64,000 bases of DNA, from the NCBI RefSeq assembly GCF_963921235.1, contig NC_086097.1, forward strand, positions 46,688,001 to 46,752,000. Direction: 5' to 3'. The translations under genes and the position numbers were made by a program. The notes under the pieces are model-generated. The model was not told where the DNA came from and made no database searches. It was given only the letters and a program-made list of their open reading frames with translations. The stretch is from Mobula hypostoma. Its lineage: Eukaryota. Shown here piece by piece: positions 6,275 through 60,798 of this stretch (positions are counted from its first letter, which is position 1; the number at the start of each line of letters is the position of its first letter).

Positions 6275-6518
6275 TTTGTAAAGACAAATGTAGGTCCCCT
6301 GCAGACAGAAACAGGTGAATTGATTATGGGGAACAAGAACATGGCAGACCAATTGAATAACTACTTTGGTTCTGTCTTCACTAAGGGGTCAGGGGGTATG
6401 GAGGGAAGGCTGGGGCGGGGTTCTGAGTTGGATGATCAGCCATGATCATAATAAATGGCGGTGCAGGCTCGAAGGGCCGAATGGCCTACTCCTGCACCTA
6501 TTTTCTATGTTTCTATTA
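6275..6518 (+). mobile_element. Internally deleted CR1 fragment
   Basis: ORF2 piece KTNVGPLQTETGELIMGNKNMADQLNNYFGSVFTK joined directly to a CR1 3' UTR (ggctcgaagggccgaatggcctactcc...ttctatgtttctat). Confidence 0.75.
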
Positions 6519-7499: not shown

Positions 7500-7735
7500 T
7501 GGACATCACCCACCCACCCACCAACCACCTTCCCGTTTCCCACTGACCTGGTCTCACCTCCCCCCTGCCAGTTCGTGCTCCTTACGCATCCCCCACCCCA
7601 CACCTTATTCTGCCTTCTCCCCCTTCCTTTTCAGTCCTGATGAAAGGTCTCGGCGCAATATGTCAACTGTTTGTTCTCTTCCATGGGTGCTTCCTGACTT
7701 GCTGAATTCCTCCAACATTTTGTGTGTGTTACTGG
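7500..7735 (+). mobile_element. Penelope-derived non-autonomous element (3' terminal repeat)
   Basis: cagtcctgatgaaaggtctcgg...gctgaattcctccaacattttgtgtgtg resembles the Penelope terminal region at 63540-63750. Confidence 0.6.
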
Positions 7736-8754
7736 AGCCCTTCTAACTTTTTCTTGAAAACTGCTTTCTGCTTCGAAATAAATTTATCTATAATAATGGT
7801 GTGTAGTCAGCTTTTCCTGAATTGTATCTTAAGTCAGTAAATTTGGCTTTCAGTAGGAATTCTAAATTGGGCAATCTTTAGGATTATATGATGTCCTCTT
7901 GTTGTGTTGATTTGTATTTCTCTTTTATTTGAACCTGTAATATTTGCACCTAATTTGGAGAAATAACACAACATTGATATAAAATAAGTGAACAGAAAAA
8001 AGTACAGTCAGCCGGAAACATTGAATGTTTACTCTTTTCCATGGATGCTGCCTGGCCTGCTGAGTTCCTCCAGCATTTTGTGTGTTTTTCTTTGAAATGT
8101 ACAGAGCATGTTGCCTTTATGGAATAGGTTGTCAGAGAATGTGGTTAAAGCAGATATAATAACAACATATAAGAGGTATTTAATTATTGTGTGCGCCTTG
8201 TCATTTAAACCCATCAGGACCCAGAGTCTTCCAGCCCACAGCTCCAACAACAAGTTCAATACAACTGCCCTGTCATCTGTAATTTTCCTACATTCATCTC
8301 TTCCCGTTCTTGTTGATTTGAAGAGGTCTGCTGTGCAGTATGTAGACAAGTACTGAATCCTTACATTGCTGTGAGACCTGTGGTAAAGATCACATACTTC
8401 TGCACAATGTGCTGAAGAAGCATCTTTGCCCAAAAAGTTGACTGTTTAGTCATTTCCACAGAAGCTGCTGATCTGCTGAGTTCCTCCAGCATTTTGTGTG
8501 TTTTTCTTTGAAATGTAGTCTGCTTTCTAGCCTTGCAGCCAAAATAATCACATTGAGCTTGCTCTACACTGAACCAGAGTAATGTAAGATTTTCAAATCC
8601 ATTTCAATGTAACCATTGTCCATTTAAAATATTTTAACTGAATGATTTAAAGGTATTACTATAAATAAGCTATCAGATATATTTTAATAAAATTTTCATT
8701 TTACTTTCCTTAAGTACAGAAAAGGCACTGATTTTTTTTAAAAATTGTATTTAG

Positions 8755-9153
8755 AAGTACTTCCGAAAAGCAAGACAATGTCAAATACGGAAATGGTATT
8801 AAATGACAATTTACCCAGTGCTGAAGATTCACCAGGTCAAGGCCAGACTGCTGGTAATACTTCAGATATTGAAGATGGAAGAAATAAAATGAGTCAAAGA
8901 TCCTTCAAGAGCAGGAAGAAAGAAAACAGCAATGCAGAAGCCAAAGTGCCTGATGAAAGTCCAAAAGAACAGAATGCATTCTTTAAAAACATTTACCGAT
9001 TAAGTAGGAGGAAATTAAGTTTCTCACCTCCAAAAACTTCAGACAATGAGAAAACAAAGTTTATGTCAAATGAAAACACAGCTAATAACTTAACAGAAGA
9101 AGAAGTGTGTGTGGAAGACAAGACAGTTGAGAACACAAAGTCTCCATTGTCAG
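8755..9153 (+). CDS. EXOC3L4: Exon A copy 1 (ATG at 8778; low-complexity N-terminal region)
   Basis: Acceptor tgtatttag|AAG, donor TCAG|gtaaaa; 399 nt, phase 1-1, open frame [10 protein letters not shown]...TKSPLS. Confidence 0.7.
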
Positions 9154-12100
9154 GTAAAAATATAGACATTAATTGGGGGTAAAATGCATTGAAGTGTTTT
9201 GTTTTATTGTCATTGATCTAATCGATAAACTAAACTCTTCTGTTAGCACAGTAGCATAACAGATATATTCCAAATAAGAAGAAATTTTCGAATGGAAGAA
9301 GGACACTACTGTGGCTGACAAGTGAAGTCAGAGCTAAAGTAAAAGCAAAAGAGAGGGCATACAAGGAAGCCAAAGCTAGTGGGAAGATAGAGGATTGGGA
9401 AGCTTTTAAAAACTTGCAGAAGGAAACTAAGGTCATTAGAAAGAAAAAGATGAATTATGAAAGGAAGCTGGCAACTAATATCAAAGAAGATACTAAAAGC
9501 TTTTTTTAAGTATATAAAGGGTAAAAGACAGTCAAGGGTAGATATAGGACCAATAGAAAATGACGCTGAAGATTTTGTAATGAGAGTCATAGAGATGGCA
9601 AAGGAACTGAATGCGTATTTTGCATCAGTTTTCACAGTGGAAGACATCTGCAGTATACCGGACATTCAAGAGTGTCAGTGAAGTGAAGTTTGTGCAGCGA
9701 AAATTACGGCTGAGAAGGTGCTCAGGAAGTTAATGGTCTGAGGGTTGATAAATCCCCTAGACCTGATAGAATGCACCCTTGGGTTCAAAAGGAAGGAGCT
9801 GGAGAGATTGCAAAGGCATTAACAATGATCTTCCTAGTTTCGATAGATTCTGGCATTGTACTGGATGACTGGAAAATTGCAAATATTACTCTGCTATTTA
9901 AGAAGGGTGGGAGGCAGCAGAAAGGAAATTATAGACCTGTTATCCTGACATCAGTGGTTGGGAAGTTGTTCGGATAGATTGTTAGGGATGAGATTACAGA
10001 GTACCTGGAAGCACATGACAAGATAGGCCAAAGCCAGCATGGTTTCCTGAAGGGAAAATCCTGCCTGACTATCCTACTGCAATTTTTTGAGGAAATTACA
10101 AGCAAAGTAGACAAAGGAGATGCAGTAGATGCGGTGTATTTGGATTTTCAGAAGGCCTTTGACAAGGTGTCGCACATGAGGCTGTTTAATAAGATGTGAG
10201 CCCATGGATTACAGGGAAGTTACTAGCACGGGTGGAGCGTTGTCTGATCGTCAGAAAATAGAGTGGAAATAAGGGTTATTCTGGCTGGCTGCCAGTTACC
10301 AGTGGAGTTCCACAGAGGTCGGTGTTGGGATCTCTGCTTCTTACGAAGTATGTCAATGATTTGGACTATGGGATTAATGGACTTGTGGCTAAATTTGCCA
10401 ATGATACAGAGCTAGGTGGATGAGAGGGTAGTGTTGAGGAAACAGAGAGCCTGTGGAGAGACTTAGGTAATTTAGGGGAATTGGCAAAGAAATGGCAAAT
10501 GAAAATCAGTTTTGGAAAGTGTATGACCATGCACCTTGGTGGAAGAAATAAATGGGCAAACTATTATTTAGATGGGTAGAGAATTCAAAATGCAGAGATG
10601 CAAAGGGACTTGGGAGTTCTTGTGCAGGATACCCTAAAGGTTAACCTCCAGGTTGAGTCGGTGGCGAAGAAGGTGAATGCAATGTTGGCATTCATTTTTA
10701 GAGGTATAGAATATAAGAGTAGGGATGTGATGTTGAGGCTCTATAAGGCACTTGTGAGACCACACTTGGAGTATTGTGTGCAGTTTTGGGCTCCTTATTT
10801 TAGAAAGGATATATTGACATTAGAGAGGATTTAGAGAAGCTTCACGAGAATGATTCCAGGAATGAAAGTGTTAGTGTATGAGGAACATCTGGCAGCTCTT
10901 GAGCTGTATTCCCTGGAGTTCAGGAGAATGAGGGGGGATCTCATAGAAACATTCTGAATGTTAGAAGGCCTGAACAGATTAGATATGGCAAAGTTATTTC
11001 CCGTGGTAGGGGAGTCTAGGACAAGAAGGCACGACTTCAGGATTGAAGGACATCCATTTAGAATAGAGAGGTGGAGAAATTACTTTAGTCAGAGGGTGGT
11101 AAATCTGTGGAATTTGTTGCCATGAGCGGGTAGGGAGGCCGAGTCATAGGGTGCATTTAAGGCAGAGATAGATAGGCTCTTGATTAGCCAGGGCATCAAA
11201 GGGCATGGGGTAAGGGCAGGGAAGTGGGGATGACTGGAAGGATTGGATCAGCCCATGATTGCATGGTACAGCAGACTCAATGGGCTGAATGGCCTACTTC
11301 TGCTCCTATATCTTATGATCTTGTGGTCTTTGCTGTGCTATCTGAATGATCAGGGTTCAATTCACCCTATGACTGCATGAGTTGCCTCCAACGTTCCAGT
11401 TGTACAAATTAGGGTTAGTAAGTTGTAGACATGTAGAATTAGGCTGTTCAGCCAATTGAATATGCTCAGACATTCAACCATAGCTGACTTATTCTCCCTC
11501 TCAACCCCATTTCACCTACCTTCTCCCCATAATCTTTGACACCTTACTAATCAAGAACAAATCAACCTATACAGAGGTTGGTTCCACAAAGAAGCATTTT
11601 TCAAGGAGTGACTTAACAGATATTGTATAATTAAATTTCTCTAGTATGCTTTGACTGTCTATTTCAGTTTTCTACTGACTTCAATGCCAGAATTATTTGC
11701 AAATACAGTTAGAAGTTCAGTGTTGCATATAAATTATTGTTTATCACAAAAAAAAATTGTTTCACCAATAAGAGTAAATAACCAAGTGTAGCAATGTCAT
11801 AAAACCTGTTCTCCTTCCCAAGACCCACGGACTTGTGGTTTAGTTTAACATTCCAGCAACAATTGTGCCTGTAGTTAACTGATTGCTGGGAGGTGAAAGA
11901 TTTAAAAGGGTCCTGAGGGACAATTTATTTGTGCAGAGCATGTTGCCTTTATGGAATAGGTTGTCAGACAATGTGGTTAAAGCAGATATGATAACAACAT
12001 ATAAAAGATATTTACTTATTGTTTAAGCCTCGTCATTTAAACCCATCAGGACCCAGAGTCTTCCAGTCCACAGCTCCAACAACAAGTTCAGTACAACTGC

Positions 12101-15100
12101 CCTGTCACCTGTTTTCCTACATTCATCTCTTCCAATTCTTGTTGATTTGGAGAGGTCTGCTGTGCAGTATGTAGACAAGTACTGAATCCTCACGTTGCTT
12201 TGAGACTTGTGGTAAAGACCACATGCTTGTGCACAATGTCCTGAAGAAGCGTCTTTGCCCAAAAAGTCGAATGTTTAGTCATTTCCAAAGAAGCTGCTGA
12301 TCTGCTGAGTTCCTCCAGCATTTTGTGTGTTTTTCTTTGAAATGTAGTCTGCTTTCCAGCCTTGCAGCCAAAATAATCACATTGAGCTTGCTCTACACTG
12401 AACCAGAGTAATGTAAGATTTTCAAATCCATTTCAATGTAACCATTGTCCATTTAAAATATTTTTGACTGAATGACTTAAAGATATTACTATAAATAAAC
12501 TATCAGATATATCTTAATAACATTTTCATTTTATTTTCCTAAGTACAGAAAAGGCACTGATTTTTTTATAAATTGTATTTAGAAGTACTTCCAAAAAGCA
12601 AGACAATGTCAAATACGGAAATGGTGTTAAATGATAATTTACCCAGTGCCAAGGATTCACCAGGTCAAGGCCAGACTGCTGGTAATACTTCGGATATTGA
12701 AGATGGAAGAAATAAAATGAGTCAAAGACCCTTCAAAAACAGTGAGAATGAAAGCAGCAATGCAGAAGCCAAAGTGCCTGATGAAAGTCCAAAAGAACAG
12801 AATGCATTCTTTAAAAATATTTACCGATTAAGTAAGAGGAAATTAAGTTCCTCATCTCTAAAAACTTCAGACAATGATAAAGCAAGGGTTATGTCAAATG
12901 AAAACACAGCTTATAACCTAACAGAAGAAGAAGTCTGCGTGGAAGATAAGACAGTTGAAAACACGAAGTCTCCATTGTCAGGTAAAAATATAGACATTAA
13001 TTAGGGGTAAAACGCATTGAAGTGTTTTGTGTTCCTTGCAAAGAAAGAGCTGCATTACAGCTGTTTGATCTCTCAAATTATGCACTTTTTTTGTCATTAA
13101 TCTAATGGATAAATTAAACTCTTCTGTTAGCATGGAAGCATAGCAGTTAGTGTACACTTCGCTGTGCTATCTGTCTGATCGGACTTGAATTCTCCCCATG
13201 ACTGCATGAGTTGCCTCCAATGTTCCAGTGGTACAAATTAGGGTTACTAAGTTGTACACATAAGACATCGGAGCAGAATTAGGCTGTTCAGCCAATTGAA
13301 TGTGCTCAGACATTCAATCATAGCTGACTTATTCTCCCACTCAACTCCATTCTTCTACCTTCTCCCCATAATCTTTGATACCCTTACTAATCAAGAACCT
13401 ATCAACCTAAGACTGGTTCCACAAAGAAGCAATTTTTCAAAGAATGACTGAACAGATATTTTGTAATTAAATTTCTCTAGCATGCTTTGACTGTCTGTTT
13501 CAATTTTCTACTGACTTCAATGTCAGAATTATTTGCAAATGCTATCAGTAGTTCAGTGTTGCATATAAATTGTATTTATCACATATAAGACTGTTCCACC
13601 TGAAACACCCTGGTTTCCTCGGCTGCGTAACTCTATGGAAGACTATCTCTAGCCCCAACAAACTTGTGAGACTGTCAGCCAGTTTGGGTTATTGTTGAAG
13701 ATAAAGGGATGATGTGGAATGTGTGCCATCCAATTAGCGGGAGGTTTTTCTTGGTGAGGGACAGTAAGGTTGGTCTTGGGCTTTTGTTCGAGAGGAGATG
13801 AAGAAAATGAAGAGAGATGACAATGGGGAGAACCGGTCGTAGCATACGATCTAGTGGGAGACCCATTCATTCGAGGTGGATTGCGAGCAACATTCGGAAG
13901 GTGGTGTGTGCTTTCACGTTGACCGAGGGCCCAGAGCATGAGTGACAGAGAAGTTCCAGATGAGCTCCAACTTGTGCACGTTTGACTGTTTAATTAGAAT
14001 GGGCCCTTTTCTTTTTGTTACTTTTTACTAAACTCATAGGTAAGATTCATAAATATAATTCCTTTAATCGTATACAGTGTACCGTCTGTTATCTCGTGGC
14101 ATTAATTTGTAATAGGGTAGCGAATTACGCAGCATCCACACAAACAGGGTTTGGGGGGCTCGAGCCCTAATCTCACACGTTTGGCTGGGCCGGAGATGGT
14201 CTTCCCGAGACTTGTGCAGCCGAGGAAACCAGTGTTTCATATGCTTCCCAGGTAGCCCCAAATTCTTTGAGGACTCAATCTCCCAGCATGAGTTGGGAGA
14301 ACCTAACCTTTTGATCATAACTCTTCTTATTTCCTTGATTTTGCTTGGCAGCTGCAACTTCAGCTAATTCATAAGTCTTTTTCAGCTCCTTCTCATATCA
14401 GACAGATACTTCAGATAACTCGTCAGTGGTGGATCTCCCAAAACAAAAAGTCGATGGGCAACCTCGCCTCGCACCCAAACATCAGCTAATATGGCGAGTA
14501 CCTGGTAGCTTCATTTCGTGTAGAGTTGTAACTGTGGACCAGATGTCCAATATGCAAACTCCACTTGTTCTTTTTGCTGATCTCCAAGGTTCTGAGCATG
14601 TCTAGCAAGGTGGGATTAAACCTCTCAGGCTGGGGATCACCCTGTGGGTGATCAGGCATAGTCCTTGACTTCTTGACTCCGTTCAGTAACTCATGTATGA
14701 GCCTACTCTCGAAATCCCGTCTCCGATCACTATGACACCACGTGGGGAGGCCATATTAAATGAAATGCTTCTCCCATAACGCTTTGGCCACCGTGGATGC
14801 CCTCTGATTCTTGGTAGGGAAGGTTTGTGCATATCTGGTGTAGTGGTCCGTGATGACTGAGGCATTCGCCATGTTGCTGGCATCTGGCTCTATTGACAGG
14901 ACGTACATACACACCAGGTCAAGGGGACCCGCACTCTGTAAGTGGGACAATGGAGCTGCCCTCATAGGCAGCGTTTTACTCCATATGCATCGAATGCACA
15001 ACTTGCTGTACTCTTTGACCTCAGACTTCATTCTGGGCCAGTAAAACCAATCTCTGAGCAATCTCGTCAACCCCCAAATGTCCAGAATCTTCATGCAGTG

Positions 15101-18100
15101 ACTTCAACACAATCCTCCGATACTTCTCAGGCAGAACCAGCTGGGAACGTCAAGTTAGGTCCAAAAGTGACATGACTCAGTATAGGATCTGGTTCCTCAA
15201 CTCCAACCTGGGCCATTCTCTCAGTAATGGAGGCACCACAGCGTGTCTCGTCTTCTCCGCTTGGGCCATGTCTCCTTTTTCGACCACTGTCCAAATGGGA
15301 CTGATGCCTGAGTAATCTCGCTGAATAGCTGCCGCTTCCCCAGGACTCAATTCCAGTAACTGGTTTGTCTACGAAGCAGTGAGGTTACAGTAAACTTGTG
15401 GAATGTCGTCATTAGAAGCTCCCAATTTATCTACCGCTCAATCCTGCCCCTGCTTTCTGTCTGTTTTCGCCGTGATGGCAAACTGGCACATGGCTTTCAT
15501 TCCTGGGGCGGGAACGCTCTCCCACTCTCCGTTCCTATCCAGCCCTTCATGCGCACGTCGGGACAAAGCATCAGCATCAACGTTCCTACTTCCCGGCCGG
15601 TACTTCAGGTTGTAATCATAGGCAGACAACACCGCCAACCACCGATGGCCTGTGGCATCCAATTTCACCAAGGTCAGGATATAAGTTAGGGGATTGTTAT
15701 CCGCCCTCATCTCAAACTTGGCACCATAGAGGTAGTCACTCAACTTATCCACCACAGCCCATTTCAACGCCAGAACTCCAACTTGTGTGTGGGATAGACT
15801 CAGAGGGTGACAGACTCCGGCTGACAAATTCAGCAGGTCTCAACCCTGTGCCCTGATCCCCATAAGCCCTGTCTGCTGGCAGCCATCTGCAGTACATACA
15901 CCAATTGGGGGTCTGCAAAAGCCAGCACAGACTCTTGTGTCAGCAGCTCCTTCAGCGATTGAAAGGCCTCTTCACATTTCGCATCCCATCTTGCTCCAAA
16001 GGACTAAGCTAATCTTTACCCTCCTCTCCTTTTGTCCTCCTCCCTTTCTTCCCCAAGAGAGGGTAACCACACAGAAGCTGATTTTAAAGGGTGACTCACT
16101 TTCACATAGTCCTTCAGGGAACTCCGATAGTACCTACAGAACCCAAGGAATGAGCACAAAGCGCTCAGTCTGGGGCCTTGGCCATGTGGTCACTGCCTCT
16201 ATCTTAGATAGATCTGTAGCTACTCCATCCCATAAGACTATGTACCCAACATAGCCGACAGATGTCTTGCAGAACTGGCACTTCTCCAGGGAAAGTTTTA
16301 ACCCTTCACCTTTAAGGTGGCCCAGCACATTCAGTAGCCTCGCTTCATGTTCCTCCAAGGTGGACCCAAACACTGATGTCATCCAGATACACCAATACCT
16401 CAGGCAAGTTCATATCTCCCACCATTTTCTCCATGACATGCTGGAAAGTCGCAGGAGCTCCTGATATGCCCTAGGGCATCCTTTCAAACTGGGGGAATCC
16501 CAGTGGACATGTAAATGCCATCTTGTCTTTGTCAGCCTCATGCATTTCTGGTAATATCCACTCCTCAAATCCAGCACACCGAACCACTTTGCACCACTCA
16601 GACAGGCCAGCGCGACTTTGATCCTCGGGACCGTATACTGGTCGGGGCCAGTACACCTGTTCAGAGTCCTATAGTCCACACACATCCGTACCTTCCTATT
16701 CTTCTTGCTGGCCACTACTACTGGGGACGCATAGGGGCTTCTGAACTCAGTGATGATCCCAGCTTCCTTCAGCTTCCACAAATACTGCCGAACATCTTCG
16801 ATCTCTGCAGGGGCCAGTCGCCACGACCTCTCTCGGAACAGGGTTTCCTCGGTCACCCAGATAGTGTAACGAGTGCTCTTGGAACGACCCATGTCAAACT
16901 TGTCAGTAGAAAAGACACCTTCCAGCTTCAGCATCCACTCTGTCAACCTCCTCTTCCAACCTGCAGGTACCAGGGAGCCTTCAAAGTTGAATGACTGAGC
17001 AGTCAACTTTCCCTTTTTTGAAGAGAGTTTCTCCCCGGCTCATCTCGCTGGCACATTAGACATTACCGTCACCTGGAAGAGATGTGCCAGGGGCATCCCC
17101 TGCTTGAAGGTGATCTCCCTCTTTGTAGTGTTCCTGACAATCACTGCCATCCTGTTCACCTGTACCACTGAGGACTTCTGCACATCAGGCCTCACTAATA
17201 CCCCAGCAGGGATGCCTGACTCCTCTTCGTCATCTTCCGGAGCATCCACCGAGAGGGGCTCAGCCTCAGGCATTCTGGGAAATTTGTGGTTTCCCATCAC
17301 TCTCACTACTTCCCCAAGCTGTAACACGAGTGGTGAACCACACAGTCCCTCGTCTAAGCTCATTATCCGGCCCAGTGTGGCCATGCACTTCCTCAAAAGC
17401 AGCTCGAAACACCGTGTGAATGGACAATGTTTTCAGAAAGCTCTCTCCTTGCAGGCCCCCTCTAGCCTCCTCACAATAGGAGTATTTGTCCCCACAAGAA
17501 TTGAAACTCCACCCTCCTCAACGGGGTCTGGACAAACCAGCGCTAATATATCAAGAACCTCAGCCACTCCCACATCAGCCTCCAAAAACTCCAGCTTCAC
17601 TGACAAATAACCATCATATGGATAATCACCCGTACCAAGTCCCCAAGTGCACTGAGTGGCGTCAATGGTAAATACATCAATACTGGTTGTAAAACGAACA
17701 GTTCAGCAAAGTGACCTGCAAGCCTGTGTCAAGTTTGGCTGTAGCATAAATGCCCTTTATCCATAGCGAGGTCCTGGAGCTTGGCCTCATTAAGCCTTCA
17801 GGAATAGAGGTTTTTGCTTTAGAGTGTTCCGTGACATATTGCTGGGAACGTGTTCCCCCTGAGAGGACACTGGGTCTCTTCTAAGTTTCTCGACATTTCT
17901 CTCTGCTTAGGTACCCGGCGGCTCACCCTCTGATGGGTTTTCTGATGCTCACGCTCCCGCCTGAAGAGTCCCTCTTCACCACAGTTATAACAGACAACAC
18001 TGGCTGCACCCCTTCTGTGTAGTCTGTCCCCTTGGGGGGTCAGCCTCCCTATCAGCTCCCAGGGGGTGCACTGTACCCGCTAATAACAGCCGGGACACCT

Positions 18101-21100
18101 CAGTTCTCAACTCTGCCACGATCTCCTTTCCCACTCCCCGGGGTGGGCTATCTGCACCCCGCAATGCAGTGGCTACTACCGAGGACTGTACCCTGCTAAC
18201 GGAGTCCTCCTTGTGCCTCTGATGCATGCTCCTCCTCTCGTATTTCTCTGATCAACTCAACAAACCCGGGGGGGGGCATTTTACGAGACAGTCGGAGACT
18301 CCAAGCGATCAGGTTCTGGGACTGGGTGCCTTTCGCTCTTTGGTCCATTCTTAACCGATCCACCTCAGTCGTCTGAATGGTCCCTCTACACTGCAAGCAA
18401 TTTAGTCACAGTCATAGTAGTCATAGTCATACTTTATTGATCCCGGGGGAAATTGGTTTCCGTTACAGTTGCACCATAAATAATTAAATAGTAATAAAAC
18501 CATAGATAGTTAAATAGTAATATGTAAATTATGCCAGGAAATAAGTCCAGGACCAGCCTATTGGCTCAGGGTGTCTGACCCTCCAAGGGAGGAGTTGTAA
18601 AGTTTGATGGCCACAGGCAGGAATGACTTCCTATGACGCTCTGTGTTGCATCTCGGTGGAATGAGTCTCTGGCTGAATGTACTCCTGTGCCCACCCAGTA
18701 CATTATGTAGTGGATGGGAGACATTGTCCAAGATGGCATGCAACTTGGACAGCATCCTCTTTTCAGACACCACCGTCAGAGAGTCCAGTTCCATCCCCAC
18801 AACATCACTGGCCTTACGAATTAGTTTGTTGATTCTGTTGGTGTCTGCTACCCTCAGCCTGCTGCCCCAGCACACAACAGCAAACATGATAGCACTGGCC
18901 ACCACAGACTCGTAGAACACCCTCAGCATCGTCCAGCAGATGTTAAAGGACCTCAGTCTCCTCAGGAAATAGAAACGGCTCTGACCCTTCTTGTAGACAG
19001 CCTCAGTGTTCTTTGACCAGTCCAGTTTATTGTCAATTTGTATCCCCAGGTATTTGTAATCCTCCACCATGTCCACACTGACCCCCTGGATGGAAACAGG
19101 GGTCACCGGTACCTTAGCTCACCTCAGGTCTACCACCAGCTCCTTAGTCTCTTTCACATTAAGCTGCAGATAATTCTGCTCACACCATGTGACAAAGTTT
19201 CCTGCCGTAGCCCTGTACTCAGCCTCATCTCCCTTGCTGATGCATCCAACTATGGCAGAGTCATCAGAAAACTTCTGAAGATGACAAGACTCTGTGCAGT
19301 AGTTGAAGCAGCTGCCTCTCTAGCTGAAATATGTAAGTAGAAAGCTCCTCCCCCTTCTCCTGACACATGTTCTGAAACCCCGTCATGAGCTCTATTGGAC
19401 TACCCGTTGCACCAAACAGCTTCTCTAGTGCTTGCATGCAGGTTGCAGAAGTGAGCAAGGGGGTTCCGTGCCTCTACGGCTCCCACTACATCAGCAGCCC
19501 GCGAACTCAAGCTCTCAGCCACTCGCTAACTCTTTCTGTCATCAGGGCACTGTCACTTATCTAAAAACTGAGAGATCTTCTCCACCCAAGTCTCATACTC
19601 CTCTTCCCCCTCGGGGCTGGTCTTCACCCCAGAGAGCATTCTCAGCTTTCGATAGCTAGGACCCTCTGCCTGGGCACTGGGCCATTTATTCACCAGGGAG
19701 GTAAGGGCTGATAGTAACTCTGAAGTCCCACTCTCCGCTAGGGGACTCATTAGACATTTCAAATCAGACCACTCCTTTCCCTCGCTCCGCAGAAACGAGC
19801 GTAACCTACCTTTGAAGTCTCCGCCCTCAGCTACGGGAGACTCAGCTTGCGATTTGGCCCACCCTCCTACACTCGTTTCCCCCCGGAAAGTATGGTCAGC
19901 CTATGGCCCCCCTTCCCCAGGACCCCAATAGTACCAGGCAGTTCCACCATTGTTACGTCAGCACTAGACTGGCTTAAAACAAAGTCTTTGACCGCCATTT
20001 TAACAAACCTCTGCTCCACAATCATAACTGTTCCTGCGGCTTTAACAGTACTTAAAGTTCGAATTAACAATTCATCAGGGATACGAATGTCTACTCCACT
20101 CAACACACAAGCGTTCGTTCCCAGTAACCCCACAGATTCGCACCACCGCTCAACCCCTGTAGCATCCATAAGCACATATCGTAATCACATTACTGGACAA
20201 TAGTTTAGCACAGACCCTCTGGATCAATGATCAGGGCAATCACACAGCATCCAATGAAATCGATCCCGGATGATACACCCAGAACGAAACACCCTGTGTC
20301 CCTTGGCTGCGTAAGTCTAGGAACGACAATTTCTGGCCCCACCAAACTTGTGAGATTGAGACATGAGCCCACCCTGAACCCCATTTGTGTGGATGCTGTG
20401 TAATTCATTATCCCATTACAAATGAGTGGCACAGAATATCAGACAGTACACTGCATACAATGAAAAGGTTTATCTTTATAATTCTTAATTTGTCTAAAAG
20501 ATTAGTAAAGAAAAGAACAAAAAAGAAAAGGGCCTATTTTAATGAAATTGTCTGGTGTGCACTAGTTGGAGCTCACAGTTTCCCCAAGTCACCAATCCTC
20601 AATCAGTCTCACCCCGAGCTTCGTCGAATCACTGTTCCACTCTGGGTTGAATCCTACAACCTCTTCTCTCCGGCACCTTCTCCCTTCATCTCTGTCGAAA
20701 CACAAAAAAAACCCCAAGCCCAACCTTAATGTCCCTCACCAGAGAAACCTCACCTCCTCACTTCATCTCTTATCTTCAACACTAACACAGACATAAGCTA
20801 AAAACAAGCAGCTCGCACAGAACAGCACGAAATGAGATAAATACAGCATAACAGTAAAAAAATATAAACCAGGGATTACACACCAATACGTGTAAATAAC
20901 CAAGTGTAGCAATGTCATAAAAACCTGTTCTCCTTCCCAAGACCCACGGACTTGTGGTTTAGTTTAACATTCCAGCAACAAATGTGCCTGCAGTAACTGA
21001 TTGCTGGGAGGTGAAAGATTTAAAAGGGTCCTGAGGGACAACTTATTTGTGCAAAGCATGTTGCCTTTATGGAATAGGTTGTCAGAGAATGTGGTTAAAG

Positions 21101-24100
21101 CAGATATAGTAACAACATGTAAAAGATATTTAATTATTGTGTAAGCCTCGTCATTTAAACCCATGAGGACCCAGAGTCTTCCAGCCCACAGCTCCAACAA
21201 CAAGTTCAGTACAACTGCCCAGTCACCTGTAATTTTCCTACATTCATCTCTTCCGATTCTTGTTCATTTGGAGAGGTCTGCTGTGCAGTATGTAGACAAG
21301 TACTGAATCCTTACGTTGCTGTGAGACTTGTGGTAAAGACCACATGCTTGTGCACAATGTCCTGAAGAAGCATCTTTGCCCAAAAAGTCGACTGTTTAGT
21401 CGTTTCCAAAGAAGCTGCTGATCTACTGAGTTCCTCCAGCATTTTTTGTGTTTTTCTTTGAAATGTACAGTCTGCTTTCCAGCCTTGCAACCAAAATAAT
21501 CACATTGAACTTGCTCTACATTGAACCAGAGTAATGTAACCCATTGTCCATTTAAAATATTTTAACTGAATGATTTAAAGGTTTACTATAAGTAAACTAT
21601 CAGATATATTTTAATAGAATTTTTATTTTATTTTCCTAAGTACAGAAAAGGCACTGATTTTTTAAAAATTGTATTTAGAAGTACTTCCGAAAAGCAAGAT
21701 AATGTCAAATACGGAAATGGTGTTAAATGACAATTTACCCGGTGCCAAGGATTCACCAAGTCAAGGCCAGACTGCTGGTAATACTTCAGATATTGAAGAT
21801 GGAAGAAATAAAATGGGTCAAAGACCCTTCAAAAACAGTGAGAACGAAAGCAGCAATGCAGAAGCCAAAGTGCCTGATGAAAGTCCAAAAGAACAGAATG
21901 CATTCTTTAAAAACATTTACCGATTAAGTAGGAGGAAATTAAGTTTCTCACCTCCAAAAACTTCAGACAATGAGAAAACAAAGGTTATGTCAAATGAAAA
22001 CACAGCTTATAACCTAACAGAAGAAGAAGTGTGTGTGGAAGATAAGACAGTTGAAAACACAACGTCTCCATTGTCAGGTAAAAATATAGATATTAATTAT
22101 GGGTAAAACGTGTTGAAGTGTTTCGTGTTCCTTGCAAAGAAAGAGCTGCATTACAGCTGTTTGATCTCTCAAATTATGCACTTTTATTGTCATTAATCTA
22201 ATAGATAAGTTGAAAACACAAAGTCTCCATTGTCAGGTAAAAAAATACAGACATTAATTAGGGGTAACACACATTGAAGTGTTTCATGTTCCTTGCAGAG
22301 GAAAAAACAGCTGCATTACAGGATCCATGGACTTGTGGTTCTGTTTAACATCCCAGCTACAATTGTGGTTGCAGTTGACTAATTGTTAGGAGGTGAAAGA
22401 TCTTAGAAACCCGAGAGACAACTTCTTTGTGCAGAGGGTGGTGCCTTTATGAAATAAGTTGTCAGAGCATACAGTTGAAGCAGATACAATTACGCCATTT
22501 ACAAGTAACTTAGCTAATTATTGAGTAGGCCATTTCTTTTAAGTCCCATCAGAAACACAGAGGCTAGCAGCCTACAGCTCCAACAACCTGTTCAGTACAA
22601 CTGCCCTGGTAACTGTAGTTTTCCTGCATTCTTCTCTTCCAGTTCCTTTTACATTTGGAGAGTTCTGCTGAGCAGCATGCAGACATATACTGAGTCACTG
22701 AGAGTTGTTTTGAGACTTGTGGTAAGGGGCATATGCTTGCACACAATGCTCTGAAGAAGGGTCTCAGCCGAAAGGTCGACTGTTTATTCATTTCCATTGA
22801 TGCTGCATTTTGTGCGTGTTGCACATGCTTGCAAAGTCATTTCCACGTAGTAACAATGGTGATCACCAATAGTTTTGTTAACAATGCAGCCTGCATAATT
22901 TGGGCCAATATTTATAATAAATTATAAACTTTTCCATAGTTAGAAGGCCCCGAAAGTAAACTTGTTGAAGATAAATAAACAAATAGTTTCAAAGCTGAGG
23001 TGGATGAAGTTAGAAAGTGATGGCGTGCAAATACATGGGAAGAGATGAATCCCACACATTAACTAGACTCAGGTACAGTGCTTAGTGAATTAGAATCATA
23101 GAGTGATACAGCATGGACACAGGTCCTTCATTCTAACTAGTGCATGTTGACTATGGTACTTACCAAGCTAGTTACATTTGCTCATGTTTTACCATAACAC
23201 CATAAGATATAGGAGCAGAATTAAGCCATTTGGCCCATCGAGTCTGTTCTGCCATTTCATCATGGCTGATCCACTTTTCCTCTCAGCCCCAATTTCCTGC
23301 CTTCTCCCTATATCCCTTCATGACTGACCAATCAAGAATCTATCAACCTTACCCTAAATATACATTCAGACTTGGGCCTCCACAGCTGCCTGTGGCAAAG
23401 AATTCCACAGATTCGGCACTCTCCGGCTGAAGAAATGCCTCCTCACCTCCCCTCCACTCTGAGGCTGTGTCCTCTGGTCTTAGACTCTCACCATAGGAAA
23501 CATCATCCCCACATCGACCCTATCAATTCAATAAGTTTCAATGAGGTTATTCCTCATTCTTCTAAATTCTAATGAATACAGGCCCAGAGCCATGAAACAC
23601 TATTCGTATGACAAGCCATTCAATCCTGGAATCATTTTTGTGATCCTCTTTTGAACCCTCTCCAGTTTCAGCACATCCTTTCAAAGATAAGGAGCCCAAA
23701 ACTGCTCACAGTACTCCAAGCAGACATCCCACCCTACAAAAACTCATTTCAGGGAGGTAGCAGCCCCGCCCCCCGCAACCCCATATCCACCCCCCCATCG
23801 TCAACCTCAAAGCATGTATGTAATACTTTGTTTAGTGATTTTGTCTAATCTGTAAACTAAGTTGGGTATATGCAGAAAATATGAGATTAAAATATGTACA
23901 TATATTATATGATTACATTATATTATCATGTTTATTCTATTACAACTTTAAGCAAGTCTACGGGGAGTTTGGCCTCATCACGTAGGACATCAACAGAGTA
24001 GCTCCTTGGCAGCTAGCCAGTTAGTTTAAATAACGTTCGCTACACTAATGAACGAATAACATCTGTTAAACTCACCTCAACATGTCTTTTACTATTTAAC

Positions 24101-27100
24101 CCACCATGGGCAATAGAAAAGTCACTGTTGCAAACAGTGTAGCGAGCAACACTGTTATTATTTTTGAGGTGGACTGTAAAGCCCGCCCACAGAGAAAACT
24201 GATAGGTCTACTCAACATGAAGAGAGACCAATTAGGATGCTCGCTCACGCTATCTCTCTCCCTCTCAAAAAATTGATTTGCGGGATATTATATATAATTT
24301 CCAGGCATCAGGGAGCCACTATCAATATGAGGGAGACTCCTGGAACTTCTGGGAGAGGTGGGATGTCTGCTCCAAGTGAGGCCTCACCGGTACTTTATAA
24401 AATCTCCTTATAAAGTTTGGCCCATATCCCTTTGGTAGGAGGGAAAGGGAGGCAGAAACCTCATATGCAGAATAGTTAAGATTAACATTTGATTCAAGGA
24501 AATGTTTAGAAGGTAGCATCAAATATATTACAGCAAGATCTTTAAAAATACAAGTTAATCTAACAGAGTAACCAGTTAACTGAAGTTGTGTGCTGTGGAT
24601 GAAGAGAAACTGGTAGATGTACCATACTTGGGTTTTCAAAGTCATTTTATAAGTTATCACATCAAAGATTATTGCATAGTATTAAAGCACATCGCGTAGG
24701 AAGCACAATATCGGTGTGGATAGGAGATGGACTGGCTCACATGAAACTGGGAGGTAGGCAAAAATGCATCTTTTTCTGGTTGAGAAGCCTGGTGTACTAG
24801 AGAGATCAGTGTTGAAGCTTCAACATTTTACAATTATTATAAATGACTTGGCTCTGAGATGCCTGTCTATGTGTATCAAAGTATATGATTTGCAAAAAGC
24901 TAGTATGCCTCTGTAGCAAGTAATTAAGAAAGTTCGCAGAATGTTATTATTTGCTCCTGGGAAAACCAATAGAGAAGTAAGGTACTGTGCAAAATATTAG
25001 TCTCAATATTTAAGGAGGGAAGATAATGCAGTTCTGAGAAGGAGTATTAGACTAGTATCTGGTTGTCTTGAGGAAAGGGTGAGAGTTATGCTTGTGTCTA
25101 TGAAGAATCAGAGGGGACTAGATTGAATCATCAAGTTCCTGAGGATTGTTGACAGGCTGGGTGTATAAAGGTTGTTGCTTCTTCCGGGAAAATCTCAGCC
25201 ATGATCTTTTTAAAAGGTGGGGTGGGCTTATTGGGCCCAATGGTCTTTCCATGGCTCTAATTCATATGTTTGCATGACTCAAATTAGGTTAATTCAACGG
25301 ACAAGAATTTAAGCTTGTTACATACTATCCCTAGCTCGAAGTACCCCAGAAACCTTCATCAAGTTTGGAAGCTTCTCTAGTTGGTCCAAGCTATAATTAT
25401 TGCTCTCCAATCTCTCTCTCACTAAAACATTAATTTTGTGTATCTATGTTGTAATCTTTCATGTGCATATTTGAAAACATAAGAGTCTAGAAATTCTTTT
25501 GCCCTTAAACTTGTTTAATTCTAGGTCAAAATACTCTGAAACCCACTGGAATGAATAAAGAAAAGTTACGTTAATCATTTTAAATGTAATGCTTTCAAAC
25601 AACTTACGATTAATCCTTTGAATTATTTTGCAGTAATGGAAATAAACCAGTTAATAACAAAAAAAATGTTACTGGATGCAAATGAAAATATAAATAAAAT
25701 GGAAAAAGAATTGATAAACGAAGGAAAACCAACAGAACATGAAGAGTACCATCAGCAATATATGGTTAAAGTTCGAGATCTCAACCTGCTGTGTGATGCA
25801 CTTATTGGGCAAATGATGTCCATAGTTGCCAATTCCCTCACTATTGCTAAAGAAAATGGTAACTATTTGTGCTGGACAATGAAAGTTGTTGAAATGGAAG
25901 AAGCAGCAGACAAAGAGTGGCAAGAACAAAAGAATCTTTCTGATATTAAGTGTTTCAGAAGGCCTCGAAAGTGGCGAGGACAGTGGAGAGAGACAGTTAC
26001 CAAAAGTGTAAAAGACAGGATAGATAATGTGCCTTTACTTACAAAGAAGAAGGGTTCCTGCATGGCACAGCATTTATCAGACATTCAAGAAATTATTGTT
26101 GAAGACCTGAAAACTGTTAAGAACTTTATACAAAAATGTTATCCAGAAAGTTACAATATTCTTAGCATGTACGTGAAATGCTATCACCAAACTGTAGCTT
26201 CTCATTTGGAAAGCATCCTACAGAAACAACTTGAAGCAAGTGATCTGTATTCACTACTCAACTGGATTATTCACACCTACAAAAGGTAGAGTACCTTCTA
26301 ATTTGCTTTCTTGAGATGTAAAAGGAAATTTCCAATCAGTAGGAAAAGGACACTTATCACTCCTGACCCTGAAAAAGGCTCCACTGACTGGGAAGGGAAA
26401 CCAACACCAAAATCTTCCAATCAATATGGTGAGAACTTCCCCATTTCTGACATCCAATTGCATAGGTCATCAATTTCAGGAGATCCCTGCTGTCCAGCTA
26501 TACTGCCACCAAACTGACTAATTAGCCAATCACATTAAATAATCCTCACAGCCAAGAATCCAGGTGATATCTTACCTAACGTTTAAATCATGGCAGAGGT
26601 TGCCAAATAATTATTTTCAAATACACGTGATTATTAATGTATTATAAATAAGGTTTTTATTATAATCATCCATGTTTTTTTTAAATACACATGTAAGGAA
26701 ATTGCAATGTGCATATGTTATTCGTTTATTGGACTTGATAATTAGTAAAGCAGTAGTTGTGGTTTAGTGTGCCATTAAAATCTCACCCTGAAATTTCTCT
26801 TGGATTAATAGCCTGTAATAAGCTTAGATTCCTATCAGTGTAATGGCTGCAAACATTGCAATCCCCATTGCATCACTCAGAGCATCTTCAGGATTTGCAA
26901 TGTTAAGTCACATGTATGCCAAATCCCAAAGTTACTGCCCACTGCCCCAAGTATAATGGAAGAACAAAAGGTAGGTTCATGGCCTTTTATTACTATGAAT
27001 TCCAAGCCCTGGTATCTGTGAAACATTGCTTTCATCTTTTCTCTAACATTTGTTGCCATACAGTATCAATTCAAAGGATCACCAACTCCCTTCAAACTGC

Positions 27101-30100
27101 CTTCACAGCTAGATATGTCGAATAATCATCATAATTGTCATAAATTGAAATATGTCTCTAAGGGAATTATACTCCACATAAAATACTTCAGGTCATAAAA
27201 TTAGCAAAATAAGCAATTGTGGCTTAGAATTTTTTTAATTCATCTCACTAGAGAATAATATTTTCAGAAGCTTTATAGTGAGAGTAGTTCAAATAGTCAT
27301 AGTCATAGTCATACTTTACTGATCCCGGGGGAAAATTGGTTTTCATTACAGTTGTACCATAAATAATTAAGTAGTAATAAAACGATAAATAGTTAAATAG
27401 TAATATGTAAATTATGCCAGGAAATAAGTCCAGGACCAGCCTATTGGCTCAGGGTGTCTGACCCTCCAAGGGAGGAGTTGTAAAGTTTGATGGCCACAGG
27501 CGGGAATGACTTCCTATGACGCTCTGTGTTGCATCTCAGTGGAATGAGTCTCTGGCTGAATGTACTCCTGTGCCCACCCAGTACATTATGTAGTGGATGG
27601 GAGACATTGTCCAAGATGGCATGCAACTTAGACAGCATCCTCTTTTCAGACACCACCGTCAGAGAGTCCAGTTCCATCCCCACAACATCACTGGCCTTAC
27701 GAATAAGTTTGTTGATTCTGTTGGTATCTGCTACCCTCAGCCTGCTGCCCCAGCACACAACAGCAAACATGATTGCACTGACAACCACAGACTCGTAGAA
27801 CATCCTCAGTATCATCCAGCAGATGTTAAAGGACCTCAGTCTCCTCAGGAAGTAGAGACGGCTCAAATATCTATGAAAAGTGTCATTTCTTTGATCGCTG
27901 GTGGGAGGCTTCTGTACTTCCTTTCTGATGGTAGCAATGAGAAGACATGCCCTAGTCTCATTGATACCATCAGGAGGAAGGTGAGGAAGCCTGAAGGCAC
28001 ACACTCAAAGATTGAGGAATATCTTCTTCCCCTCTGCCATCCGATTTCTGAATGGACATTGAACTCGTGATCGCTACCTCACTACATTTTATTTCTATTT
28101 TTGGCACTACTTATTTAATTTAATTTAATTCCATTTTTTTAAATCTCTCTAATATTATGTATTGCATTGTACTGCTGCTGCAAAGTTAACAAATTTCACA
28201 ACGTATGCTGGCGATATTAAACCTGATTCTGATCAGTGGAGGAATAGGGAATTAGCTTCAGAATGTCAGTACTTACATTGCATTTGCTTGCTCAATAAGT
28301 CCCACAGTCTACTGACAGTGAAAGAAAAGAACTTGATAGGGCCACGTGTGATATCATAATATTTCACAATAATAATTTACCTTTGAGATATTACTGTTAT
28401 GGGGAAGCTGACAACCAGCATGCACACAGCACACTCTAGTGAGCATTTTCTGAACAAGCTGCATGGGTGAAGCACACTGTATATAATTCCTGAACTGTTA
28501 TATTTAATGTTGTAAAGGGATAATTTGCATGAGAGTATATGGGGTGTAGGTTTAATGCTTCATCTAATAGATAATAGATATCTTTGCCGGTGCTATACTG
28601 AAGTGGCAGTCTTGAGCTTTTTTGTGCTTGAGCTCTAGAGGGCAACATAATCCTATAACATTTGGGCTTTGAAGAGTACAGGGCCCCTCTGGTAACACTG
28701 TCACCCAATAAACTGGAAGTGTGTTGAGGCATTTGATTATGTTCTCAGCAAACAATCAATTACACAATGAAGTGAAATAACTCAAAGGAATCAAATTCCT
28801 GAATGAAAACACAGCAATATTTCCCACTAAAAACTTGATAATTTTACCAGGAAAGTGTGATTAAGAAGATAGTTATCTAAGTATTTTGTCCTTAATACGG
28901 CAGTAAGCTTGATGAAATAATTCTACTCTCAACCATCTTCCCTTTGGTTGGAAATATTATTGCAGCCTGCTGTGGCTCAGATTATTTATTATAACAAAAT
29001 TACAACTGTTAGTTTACAAAATCAAAATACTACAGATGTTGGAAACCCGAAATAAAAACCTTGAACTCTGGGAATACTCAGGTTGGATAATATTTGTAGA
29101 GAGCATCAGTCTTAATATTTACAGTTGTTCTTTCATCATAACAGGTATCAGGCAGAAAACCACAGGGGAAGTAAAGAACACTTGCATAATCTAATATTTA
29201 AATGATTTGTCCCTTGGGTCTCATTGCAAAAAAGATAAACTTGCATCCTTGCAGGTTCAATAAGTAAACTTCAGGATAAAATGGCTATTGGTTTATCTTC
29301 CAAGTAGCTGTTAAGTGTACAAAAATACATTTTTTTTCAATTTTTGTTCTTCTGAGATGATCACATCTATCTATCTCTTTCCTTTTTACTTTGCCATACA
29401 CAACTCTGTGTCATCAAAACTAATTTCAGACTCTGTACACCTAATGCAAAAGTACGCACTATTCACATAAAATAAAGCTAGTATCTTCTCTGGTATATGC
29501 AGAAGAATACTTTTCTTTACAATAAATCCATCCCAAAATTGTACTTTTCCAAATCTATTATTGTTATGGTTTTTATGTAACAAATCTACAGCTTATTTTA
29601 CAAAATCAAAATACTGCAATGCTGGAAACCTAAAGTAATTCCAAAAATAGTCAGGTCAGATAGTGAGAAGAAACTGAGCAAGATTGGTAATTATGCCGTT
29701 AATTGCGAAAATTAAATGCTTAAAGTATCCCACTTTACTTGTAGTGATGCTGTTATGAACCATCCTGAGCTTTCACCAGAAGTGAACATCGAGGGACTTG
29801 GTCCATTGTTAGATGAAAAAATTATAAAGAATATCATGGACAAATATATTGAAGCTTTGAAGGTATGAATGAAATGATAAGTACCTTTCAAGTGATCTTA
29901 TCGGACAACAGACTAAGAAAAGAAATCAATGTATAGAAAAAGACTTTAATACAAGTTTAGATAAGATCCTCTCCTGTTCAGCGTAACGATGTCTGCTTCT
30001 TGGGTGCAATTTTTTTCACAGCTAGATTATTTGTTCTAAGACCTGATTCTTCATTGACAGGTCATTAAAATTTCCTGTCAGAGAGCTGTTCTGGAACTGG

Positions 30101-45050: not shown

Positions 45051-45088
<38 letters not shown>

Positions 45089-59860: not shown

Positions 59861-60798
59861 GTAAGTATATACCATTTTTTTTGTTTCTTCCTGTGTTTTT
59901 TGCAAATATTTTGTGTATACAAATTGATGCATTCCAGTACTAATTTCCTCTCTGAGCCAAAGCAAACACCACATAGAATTGTGTAAATATTCAGAATTAA
60001 TTATGTAGCCTATATCTAGTCAGCAACTATATCTAGGTAGCAACTGTTCCTTTTAATCTTCAGCATTATTAGATGATTTTTGCATTCCCTTTTAATCCCT
60101 GATATAAAATTTAGCTAAATCTGGTGAAATTTGCAAATATTTATTTTAGGTATTACCCTAAAATAAAAATTAGCTTCCAAAAAGTTCCTGCAAATATGCA
60201 CACTTCCGAGGGTGTTCACCTGAAATATCAAAAGACCATGTCAGCAACTAAGGGGAAAAAACTCATTGTTATGGACTGCTTTTCTTTACTGGTATATAAA
60301 AAAATTAAAATAAATTGGGAAGGTGTTGGGAAAAATGTAGAGGAACCTGCTGATAGATCAACAGAAATCCTATCACCTCAAAAATCCTTCTTGGGTTTAG
60401 AAGGTCCAGTTTCAAAGCGTTTGATATTTATTTTGCTTACATAATAAAGAATAATGTGGGACATAGAGATAGAAGTTATTCTTTTTAAATATTTTTATTG
60501 AATTAGTACACAAAAGGTAAAACATATAGCAACCAATACATTGTTAAGATATAAATATACAAGTAATATTAATACAAAAAAACAATGCAAACAATGTAAG
60601 TTAGTTATAAAATAACAAGGTAATATAGTTGTATACTAATTTTCCATATATATCGATAAATGAGAAATAAAACAGGAAAAAAAACCCAAAAAAAATACCT
60701 ACCATGCAACTAACCTACAAAGCAAAGCAATGGAAGCAACACACATCAAAGTTGCTGGTGGACGCAGCAGGCCAGGCAGCATCTCTAGGAAGAGGTAC

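What the first reader, a model, noticed from the sequence alone, without database searches (positions are those of the whole stretch)
8755..22077. First coding exon of an EXOC3L4/TNFAIP2-like gene triplicated as intact symmetric cassettes
Seen: three 399-nt exons (8755-9153, 12583-12981, 21679-22077) keep identical splice sites and have no indels or stops, although the neighbouring intron copies carry several indels and large insertions. Each is phase 1-1, so any combination splices in frame (..SPLS-E-VLPKSK..) and onto exon B ([12 protein letters not shown]). Each also has its own ATG. Established: TNFAIP2/M-Sec uses an N-terminal basic region for membrane phosphoinositide binding. Inference: the protein may carry one to three copies of a 133-aa disordered module with a basic/amphipathic patch ([15 protein letters not shown]), giving length or avidity tuned by splicing.
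Basis: partly seen in the sequence, partly recalled or inferred. Interest (0 to 1): 0.7.

Follow-up and report, generated by a model that had tools for sequence, protein, structure and literature searches.

The report
Tripled first exon of ray EXOC3L4
In devil rays the first coding exon of the vesicle-tethering gene EXOC3L4 has been copied three times (four in a stingray) and the copies seem to be strung together in one longer protein, which is an ordinary kind of exon duplication, although similar repeats of the same candidate membrane-binding patch arose separately in several other vertebrates.

Summary
The three 399-nt exons are real, intact and frame-neutral. They match RefSeq XP_062903757.1 (Mobula hypostoma, 989 aa), which already joins all three. 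The gene is EXOC3L4, not TNFAIP2 (tree 100/99; grouping with TNFAIP2 rejected, p-AU 1.8e-5). Copy number: 3 in two Mobula, 4 in Hemitrygon, 1 in 10 other elasmobranchs. Contig lengths in 4 runs fit serial inclusion A1-A2-A3-B, not skipping onto B; one contig fits A1-A3 or an assembly chimera. Within the window, selection is weak: exon and upstream-intron divergence are equal (8.8%), and dN/dS is 0.53-0.63 after transition correction (P 0.05-0.12). The copies are mosaics, consistent with gene conversion. Each carries one conserved basic-hydrophobic patch in a disordered arm. Unrelated tandem repeats bearing such patches occur in frog, reptile and sturgeon EXOC3L4. Verdict: a genuine lineage-specific exon expansion of a known kind. 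Splicing-tuned avidity is unsupported; recurrent multiplication of the patch is the interesting, untested part.

The parts
8755..9153 (+). Exon A1: 23 nt of 5' UTR plus start codon at 8778; first module
   Evidence: residues 1-125 of XP_062903757.1 at 100%; A1-specific contigs from 9030
12583..12981 (+). Exon A2: former UTR now read as an 8-aa linker (EVLPKSKT), then second module
   Evidence: residues 126-258 at 100%; A2-specific 129-nt contig 12788-12916 in X1 and X2
21679..22077 (+). Exon A3: third module; a 3-nt alternative acceptor is implied by RefSeq isoform X2 (988 aa)
   Evidence: contigs 21678-21789 and 21760-21913 in X2
8979..9020 (+). Basic-hydrophobic motif of A1 (module residues 68-81); the same motif lies at 12807-12848 and 21903-21944
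   Evidence: helix in the model; basic-hydrophobic score 0.84/0.67/0.84, hydrophobic moment 0.95 (scales recalled)
25634..26285 (+). Exon B, 652 nt, phase 1-2; start of the Sec6 helical rod
   Evidence: Pfam Sec6 E 1.2e-30; boundaries; contigs enter at this boundary in 4 of 4 runs
29725..59866 (+). Further coding exons, approximate tblastn stretches 29725-29865, 31228-31362, 42264-42365, 46254-46343, 59289-59411 and 59486-59866; residues after about 890 were not matched in the window
   Evidence: tblastn of P0018
8098..11766 (+). Duplication unit 1, with a LINE-type insertion at 9259-11327
   Evidence: self-BLAST, alignments; the LINE/CR1 label is recalled from the translated frames
11763..13600 (+). 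Duplication unit 2 (about 1.84 kb, uninterrupted)
13601..20880 (-). 7.28-kb LTR-retroelement-type insertion between units 2 and 3, TG...CA ends, 4-bp target duplication CACC
   Evidence: broken gag/pol-like frames on the minus strand (Gypsy label recalled)
20881..22207 (+). Duplication unit 3
   Evidence: 92.7% to unit 2 over 1362 columns
22208..22321 (+). Relic: last 31 nt of the exon, its donor and the intron start; no acceptor
   Evidence: 8-11% different from the three copies
22319..22806 (+). Older direct copy of the upstream intron segment (21% different); candidate substrate or remnant of earlier unequal crossing-over
   Evidence: its role is inference

Best explanation
A roughly 1.8-kb unit holding the first coding exon of EXOC3L4 was duplicated in tandem in myliobatiform rays, most likely by unequal crossing-over (inferred). 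The exon's 23-nt UTR part plus 376 coding nt make 399 nt with no in-frame stop, so extra copies splice in frame and the old UTR becomes an 8-aa linker (shown from sequence). The copies are kept alike by gene conversion and further crossing-over (inferred from mosaic patterns). The product is a Sec6-type helical rod with a 390-aa disordered, near-neutral arm that carries three basic-hydrophobic patches instead of one. The most likely role of each patch is to fold as an amphipathic helix on acidic phospholipids and recruit the rod to the plasma membrane, so three copies would raise avidity and reach in a fixed, species-specific way (inferred by analogy with the paralogue M-Sec; not shown). Constraint on the copies is modest.
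For: RefSeq models join 3, 3 and 4 copies; 10 other elasmobranchs have 1. A unitig model of the full transcript predicts pieces of 165 nt (A1:276 to A2:41), 129 nt, 100 nt and 77 nt before B; one search shows 165 nt from 9030 (X2), 129 nt (X1, X2), 100 nt (X2) and 77 nt before B in 4 of 4 runs; models with more than one exon spliced onto B predict 14 nt. RefSeq isoform X2 differs only by 3 nt at the A2-A3 joint. Copies cluster by genus (bootstrap 85 and 96), while A2 and A3 are positional orthologues between the two Mobula species (94.4% and 96.0% aa). Odd-copy sites in the exon are clustered (runs P 0.023, longest run P 0.011); A1 equals A3 over exon positions 173-305, where M. birostris copy 1 keeps residues shared with Hemitrygon; the distal part of the unit is twice as diverged as the exon-proximal intron (50/435 against 36/621, p 0.0013). 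Disorder and a helix at the motif; motif conserved in 13 species and scoring above 0.6 in all 10 copies. M-Sec binds PI(4,5)P2 through an N-terminal polybasic region (PMC5024327, passages).
Against: The joint table was filled by repeats (139 joints and 34,314 pieces not shown), so no A-to-A junction was read directly; the assignments rest on contig lengths. One contig (X1 record 2, 235 nt) fits A1-A3 exactly, though graph simplification can give the same length. Contigs drop minor isoforms; the runs are only guessed to be RNA; tissues are unknown; three of the four runs are one study. 77 nt before B does not tell A3-B from A2-B. Selection in the window is borderline, and the motif is not significantly better kept than the rest of the module among the copies (p 0.18-0.30). 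Open frames in other species come from gene models, which would omit broken copies. Lipid binding by EXOC3L4 was not found in the searches and was not tested.
Confidence: 0.62

Rival explanations
1. Splicing-tuned array: transcripts carry one to three modules in regulated proportions, tuning arm length or membrane avidity.
For: All combinations are in frame. X1 record 2 (235 nt) fits an A1-A3 junction. Single-copy relatives have RefSeq isoforms without exon A (Amblyraja and Leucoraja 611 aa, Stegostoma 591 aa), so this exon can be skipped.
Against: A single predecessor of exon B in 4 of 4 runs, and a 165-nt piece that needs an unbranched A1-A2 path in X2. Clusters P0001 and P0002 list no reduced-copy isoform (4 members), but a 90% cluster look-up could miss them; the searches of longer (381-2000 aa) and near (543-1731 aa) lengths returned no further Mobula or Hemitrygon form. 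Splice sites of the copies are nearly identical, giving little handle for separate regulation.
Confidence: 0.15
2. Tolerated, nearly neutral expansion: the array persists because it is frame-neutral and lies in a disordered arm; selection only removes frameshifts and stops, and copy number drifts by unequal crossing-over.
For: Exon divergence equals intron divergence (p = 1.0); dN/dS 0.53-0.63, P 0.05-0.12. Modules diverge faster than the core (Mobula-Hemitrygon 74-78% against 90%). Copy number differs (3 against 4) and a deleted relic lies beside A3. One Mobula copy per species has lost the motif's final Phe.
Against: All 10 copies keep a basic-hydrophobic peak; all 7 linkers derived from former UTR are EVLPKSK[T/I] across two genera; similar motif-bearing repeats arose in at least three other vertebrate lineages. 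This rival is compatible with serial inclusion and differs only in whether the extra copies matter.
Confidence: 0.35
3. Independent duplications in Mobulidae and Dasyatidae rather than one ancestral duplication followed by homogenisation.
For: Copies group by genus (bootstrap 85 and 96).
Against: Same exon unit and identical linker in both genera; signs of conversion in Mobula would produce the same grouping. No genomic DNA of Hemitrygon could be examined.
Confidence: 0.3
4. Assembly artefact (collapsed or falsely duplicated haplotypes).
For: None beyond the high similarity of the copies.
Against: Copies differ by 5-7.5%, carry different insertions, recur in three species, and copy-specific variants are present in independent runs.
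Confidence: 0.01

Closest known systems
EXOC3L4 (exocyst complex component 3-like 4) of jawed vertebrates
   Same: Orthologue: clade 100/99 with records named EXOC3L4 from shrew, dunnart, turtle, two squamates, two frogs, lungfish and a notothenioid; Sec6 rod; disordered arm with basic-hydrophobic patches.
   Different: The arm is multiplied by whole-exon duplication (3-4 units of 133 aa); other lineages have repeats at shifts of 61-115 aa whose exon basis was not examined.
TNFAIP2 / M-Sec (EXOC3L3)
   Same: Paralogue; best solved-structure match 5B86, E 1e-40; N-terminal basic region that binds PI(4,5)P2 (PMC5024327, passages).
   Different: Separate clade; sharks have their own TNFAIP2-like protein (P0078); M-Sec uses two lysine clusters (PMC6080751, passages), whereas the ray patch is an Arg/Lys amphipathic segment in a near-neutral module (16-19 K+R against 21 D+E).
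Tandem exon duplication with joint inclusion, e.g. 4Ig B7-H3 (PMC3172298, abstract) and vertebrate COE (PMC2394523, search listing)
   Same: Lineage-restricted tandem exon copies that lengthen the protein.
   Different: Here the unit is the first coding exon, UTR sequence is recruited as linker, and the module is disordered rather than a folded domain.
Mutually exclusive tandem duplicated exons (PMC9741552, PMC9013439; search listing)
   Same: Tandem homologous exons of equal length.
   Different: The mutually exclusive model predicts 138-nt and 91-nt pieces and 14 nt before exon B; 165 nt and 77 nt were seen.

Membership tests
Sec6/EXOC3 family | Pfam Sec6 domain, helical rod | tested here: met
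   PF06046 E 1.2e-30 on exon B; all-helical model from residue 392; 5B86 match
EXOC3L4 | Clade with named EXOC3L4 proteins | tested here: met
   100/99 in IQ-TREE with 25 rows, 23 of them named; FastTree 1.0 with 128 rows
EXOC3L4 | Synteny beside TNFAIP2 | tested here: inconclusive
   No neighbour gene found in the window and no genome held; in Heptranchias the orthologue and the TNFAIP2-like protein lie on contigs of the same length, 87,304,332
TNFAIP2/M-Sec | Clade with named TNFAIP2 proteins | tested here: not met
   Constraint rejected, p-AU 1.78e-5
TNFAIP2/M-Sec | Two N-terminal lysine clusters that bind PI(4,5)P2 | tested here: not met
   No such clusters in the module; an amphipathic Arg/Lys patch instead; lipid binding itself is not testable here
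Tandem exon duplication, jointly included | Homologous exons with duplicated flanking intron | tested here: met
Tandem exon duplication, jointly included | Copies present in series in one mRNA | tested here: inconclusive
   Contig lengths and RefSeq models fit; no single read or contig spanning all copies was seen
Mutually exclusive duplicated exons | Each copy splices separately onto the downstream exon | tested here: not met
   One predecessor of exon B in 4 of 4 runs
Concerted evolution of a tandem array | Copies more alike within than between lineages, with conversion tracts | tested here: met
   Within genus 84-98% against 74-78% between genera; clustered sites P 0.01-0.02; independent duplication per family is not excluded
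Basic-hydrophobic membrane-binding motif | Binding to acidic phospholipids | not testable with these tools
   Only sequence scores (scale recalled) and a low-confidence helix, pLDDT about 35

The most novel reading that the evidence does not exclude
The number of basic-hydrophobic membrane patches in the disordered arm of EXOC3L4 (and of some TNFAIP2-clade proteins) is a trait that selection has raised repeatedly in vertebrates: by whole-exon duplication with recruitment of UTR as linker in rays, and by unrelated repeat units in frogs, sauropsids and sturgeon. Copy number would then set membrane avidity and reach of an exocyst-like tether, and the ray array (3-4 near-identical units, possibly also skipped in some tissues) would be the cleanest natural series for testing it.
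Probability: 0.25. Interest if true: 0.6.

Novelty: new member of a known kind. Interest (0 to 1): 0.36.

Why it matters
EXOC3L4 is a little-studied exocyst paralogue; the searches found no study of its N-terminal arm. The ray gene points to the motif that is conserved in that arm and offers a natural 1-, 3- and 4-copy series for measuring how motif number changes membrane binding. It is also a neat case of a first coding exon becoming a frame-neutral cassette by the chance length of its UTR part. The mechanism itself is textbook, and the three-copy protein is already in RefSeq as an automatic model.

Tried and rejected
No whole genome is held for this window, so neighbours and other copies could not be searched. 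The run search listed no holder on record as RNA; the four runs laid behave as RNA (unique intron bins at depth 0-2, long contigs entering at the exon B boundary), which is my inference. 4 of the 16 listed runs were laid. The joint and loose-end tables were filled by repeat-derived rows, so junctions were not read directly. Contig depths (X3: A1/A3-shared 179, A2 88, A3 92, B 99; X2: 8, 10, 11, 8) look like equal inclusion, but the tool says depth cannot rank parts of a gene, so they were not counted as evidence. The starts of contigs at 21678 (X2) and 21679 (X5) fit none of the 8 models tried and remain unexplained. The search for short proteins spanning an A-A junction found 1 protein, a single-copy skate-like fragment. 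Pfam found nothing for the module. A BLAST self-comparison for internal repeats returned 0 of 198 including the known triple, so it was discarded and replaced by a shifted-diagonal scan. A motif regular expression matched 10 of 34 EXOC3L4-clade arms and was not used further. No homologue of the skate upstream leader peptide was found in 1-8754 (best score 24). Look-ups of earlier findings by place gave nothing. TNFAIP2 identity, mutually exclusive splicing and assembly artefact were rejected as set out above. Literature: 7 searches, whose listings showed no title on this duplication; the manta genome preprint 10.64898/2026.10.27.761883 has 0 main-text hits for EXOC, TNFAIP, exocyst or exon duplication; its supplements were not seen and could list the gene.
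Full report
Observation. The three exons lie at 8755-9153, 12583-12981 and 21679-22077, each 399 nt with the same acceptor and donor, one open frame and no indel. They differ at 30, 21 and 20 positions. Exon B is 25634-26285 and begins in phase 1, so every combination is in frame. The duplicated unit is about 1.84 kb; unit 1 carries a 2.07-kb LINE-type insertion and a 7.28-kb LTR-type insertion with a CACC target duplication separates units 2 and 3 (element labels recalled). A relic exon tail with its donor (22208-22321) and an older, 79%-identical copy of the upstream intron (22319-22806) follow A3.

Identity. Exon B carries Pfam Sec6. Its homologue search returned 17 proteins, 16 named elasmobranch records and one unnamed. 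The window's three exons match XP_062903757.1 (Mobula hypostoma, 989 aa) letter for letter, and that automatic model already joins all three; isoform X2 lacks one residue at the A2-A3 joint. A search of 50% representatives, a 128-row FastTree (of 153 candidate rows, 22 were dropped for length and 3 for gaps), names for 20 rows and a 25-row IQ-TREE place the gene with EXOC3L4 at 100/99. Holding it with TNFAIP2 is rejected (p-AU 1.78e-5), and a shark has a separate TNFAIP2-like protein.

Distribution. Of 13 species aligned, two Mobula have 3 modules, Hemitrygon akajei has 4, and Pristis, Narcine, three skates and five sharks have 1. These counts come from gene models, which would omit broken copies. 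In single-copy species the protein starts at the module's Met, so the 23 nt before it are ancestral UTR; in the arrays they are read as a linker, EVLPKSK[T/I] in all 7 cases. The frame neutrality is thus a product of UTR length, not of an ancestral symmetric coding exon (inference). A2 and A3 are positional orthologues between the Mobula species (94.4% and 96.0%), so the triplication predates their split; copies group by genus (bootstrap 85 and 96).

Splicing. Four runs kept as contigs, guessed to be RNA, from two studies, were laid on 5960-25950. The joint table was swamped by repeats, so I compared contig lengths with unitigs predicted for 8 transcript sets. The full transcript predicts pieces of 165, 129 and 100 nt and 77 nt of exon A before B. 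Seen: 165 nt starting at 9030 (X2), 129 nt at 12788-12916 (X1, X2), 100 nt at 8960-9059 (X2), and long contigs entering exon B with 77 nt before it in 4 of 4 runs. The 129- and 100-nt pieces show only that all three copies are present; the 165-nt piece points to A1-A2; the 77 nt point to one predecessor of B, A3 or A2. Models in which two or three copies splice onto B predict 14 nt. Against this, X1 record 2 (235 nt from 9030) equals the A1-A3 prediction; graph simplification can give the same end point, and other pieces (154 and 112 nt in X2) are longer than any pure unitig, so simplification is at work. An unspliced A2-intron contig appears in X5 (12952-13376). Minor isoforms would be lost in contigs. 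Skates and zebra shark have models without exon A, so skipping is possible in this gene. Serial inclusion is the best reading; regulated one-to-three tuning is not shown.

Selection and history. Variable columns are 35 of 399 in the exon and 59 of 669 in the shared intron (p = 1.0). Indels are 0 against 8 (P 0.02; 0.06-0.10 if 2-3 events, such as the T-run length changes, are discounted). There are 14 synonymous and 22 non-synonymous changes: dN/dS 0.42 (P 0.011) with equal rates, 0.53 (P 0.050) with the intron spectrum, 0.63 (P 0.12) with the intron transition bias; absence of stops has P 0.13-0.32. Uncorrected pairwise values are 0.26, 0.48 and 0.36. So constraint is suggested but weak. The copies are mosaics: odd-copy sites cluster in the exon (P 0.023 and 0.011) but not in the intron (P 0.47); A1 equals A3 over positions 173-305, where M. 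birostris copy 1 keeps residues shared with Hemitrygon; and the distal part of units 1 and 2 differs at 11.5% against 5.8% next to the exon (p 0.0013). Gene conversion would make the copies look younger than the duplication; uneven mutation rates in repeat-derived DNA are an alternative for the last result.

Protein. AlphaFold with 18 sequences gives pLDDT below 50 for residues 1-385, with one low-confidence helix per module at 64-77, 197-211 and 329-342, then a helical rod. That helix is the best-conserved window across 13 species (0.85 against 0.68), has the highest hydrophobic moment in the module, and is the only basic-hydrophobic peak above 0.6 in each of the 10 copies (scales recalled). 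Among the copies it is not significantly better kept than the rest (1 of 14 against 29 of 111 variable columns in Mobula, p 0.18). M-Sec binds PI(4,5)P2 by two lysine clusters, and its authors discuss phosphorylation nearby as a switch (PMC5024327, passages; PMC6080751, passages). The ray patch includes R/K-R/K-x-S, a basophilic kinase consensus (recalled). Membrane recruitment is the likeliest role, by inference only.

Wider pattern. A shifted-diagonal scan of N-terminal arms found repeats in 8 of 38 EXOC3L4-clade, 4 of 31 TNFAIP2-clade, 0 of 12 EXOC3L2 and 1 of 30 EXOC3/EXOC3L1 representatives with arms of 60 aa or more (17 of 128 rows had shorter arms and were not tested). I judged by eye 6 and 3 of these to be motif-bearing and set aside 4 (two low-complexity, one short repeat that looks like a model artefact, one coiled-coil-like); 9 of 69 against 0 of 42 gives p 0.013, raw 12 of 69 against 1 of 42 gives p 0.017. 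The EXOC3L4 cases are bullfrog (shift 61, also in many transcript-like contigs), Rhineura (76), turtle (70), gecko (115), sturgeon (79) and the rays (133), each with several basic-hydrophobic peaks. The three sauropsid cases share a motif and may have one origin. Caveats: cluster representatives may favour long or divergent forms, EXOC3 has a folded rather than disordered N-terminus (recalled), and disordered arms gain repeats easily.

Literature. Seven searches listed no paper on this duplication or on repeats in EXOC3L4; I saw listings only, except passages of PMC5024327, PMC6080751 and preprint 10.64898/2026.10.27.761883 (no main-text mention, supplements unseen) and the abstract of PMC3172298.

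Verdict. A real, transcribed, lineage-specific tandem duplication of the first coding exon of EXOC3L4, probably included in series and shaped by conversion: a new member of a known kind, already present as an automatic gene model. Interest 0.36. The bolder reading, repeated selection for more membrane patches across vertebrates, has probability about 0.25 and would deserve about 0.6.

Noticed in passing
window 5340-5410: A GC-box-like stretch, a donor-like site after 5382 and an ISRE-like GAAA repeat at 5391-5400 (motif names recalled); a candidate non-coding first exon with an interferon-response element beside it. It lay outside the stretch on which runs were laid.
   Followed up: partly
window 13601-20880: The LTR-type insertion has TG...CA ends and a CACC target duplication, but its two terminal segments (13601-14239 and about 20286-20880) are only 74% alike and inverted; the left one has 71-bp terminal inverted repeats. 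Possibly nested or recombined elements.
   Followed up: partly
window 18418-19308, 27300-27864, 43318-44207: Three young copies (95-97% identical) of a LINE-type 3' fragment, the first nested inside the LTR-type insertion; very deep contig cover in all four runs.
   Followed up: no
window 60726-61549 and 62891-63729: An 840-bp inverted repeat, 93% identical, around a reverse-transcriptase-like frame (61624-62891) with an endonuclease-like frame on the minus strand at 61128-61592; looks like a Penelope-type element (label recalled).
   Followed up: no
window 12952-13376: Run X5 has a contig running unspliced from the end of A2 into the intron (depth 14); pre-mRNA or an early 3' end that would give a soluble two-module peptide. 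An unnamed skate-like protein, P0049, also reads through this donor.
   Followed up: no
window 50227-50721: Broken frames resembling a hAT-type DNA transposase remnant (label recalled); no Pfam hit for 50227-50553.
   Followed up: partly
P0171 (988 aa, TNFAIP2 clade, unnamed): At least four 58-aa tandem units, each with a strong basic-hydrophobic patch: a parallel expansion in the paralogue.
   Followed up: partly
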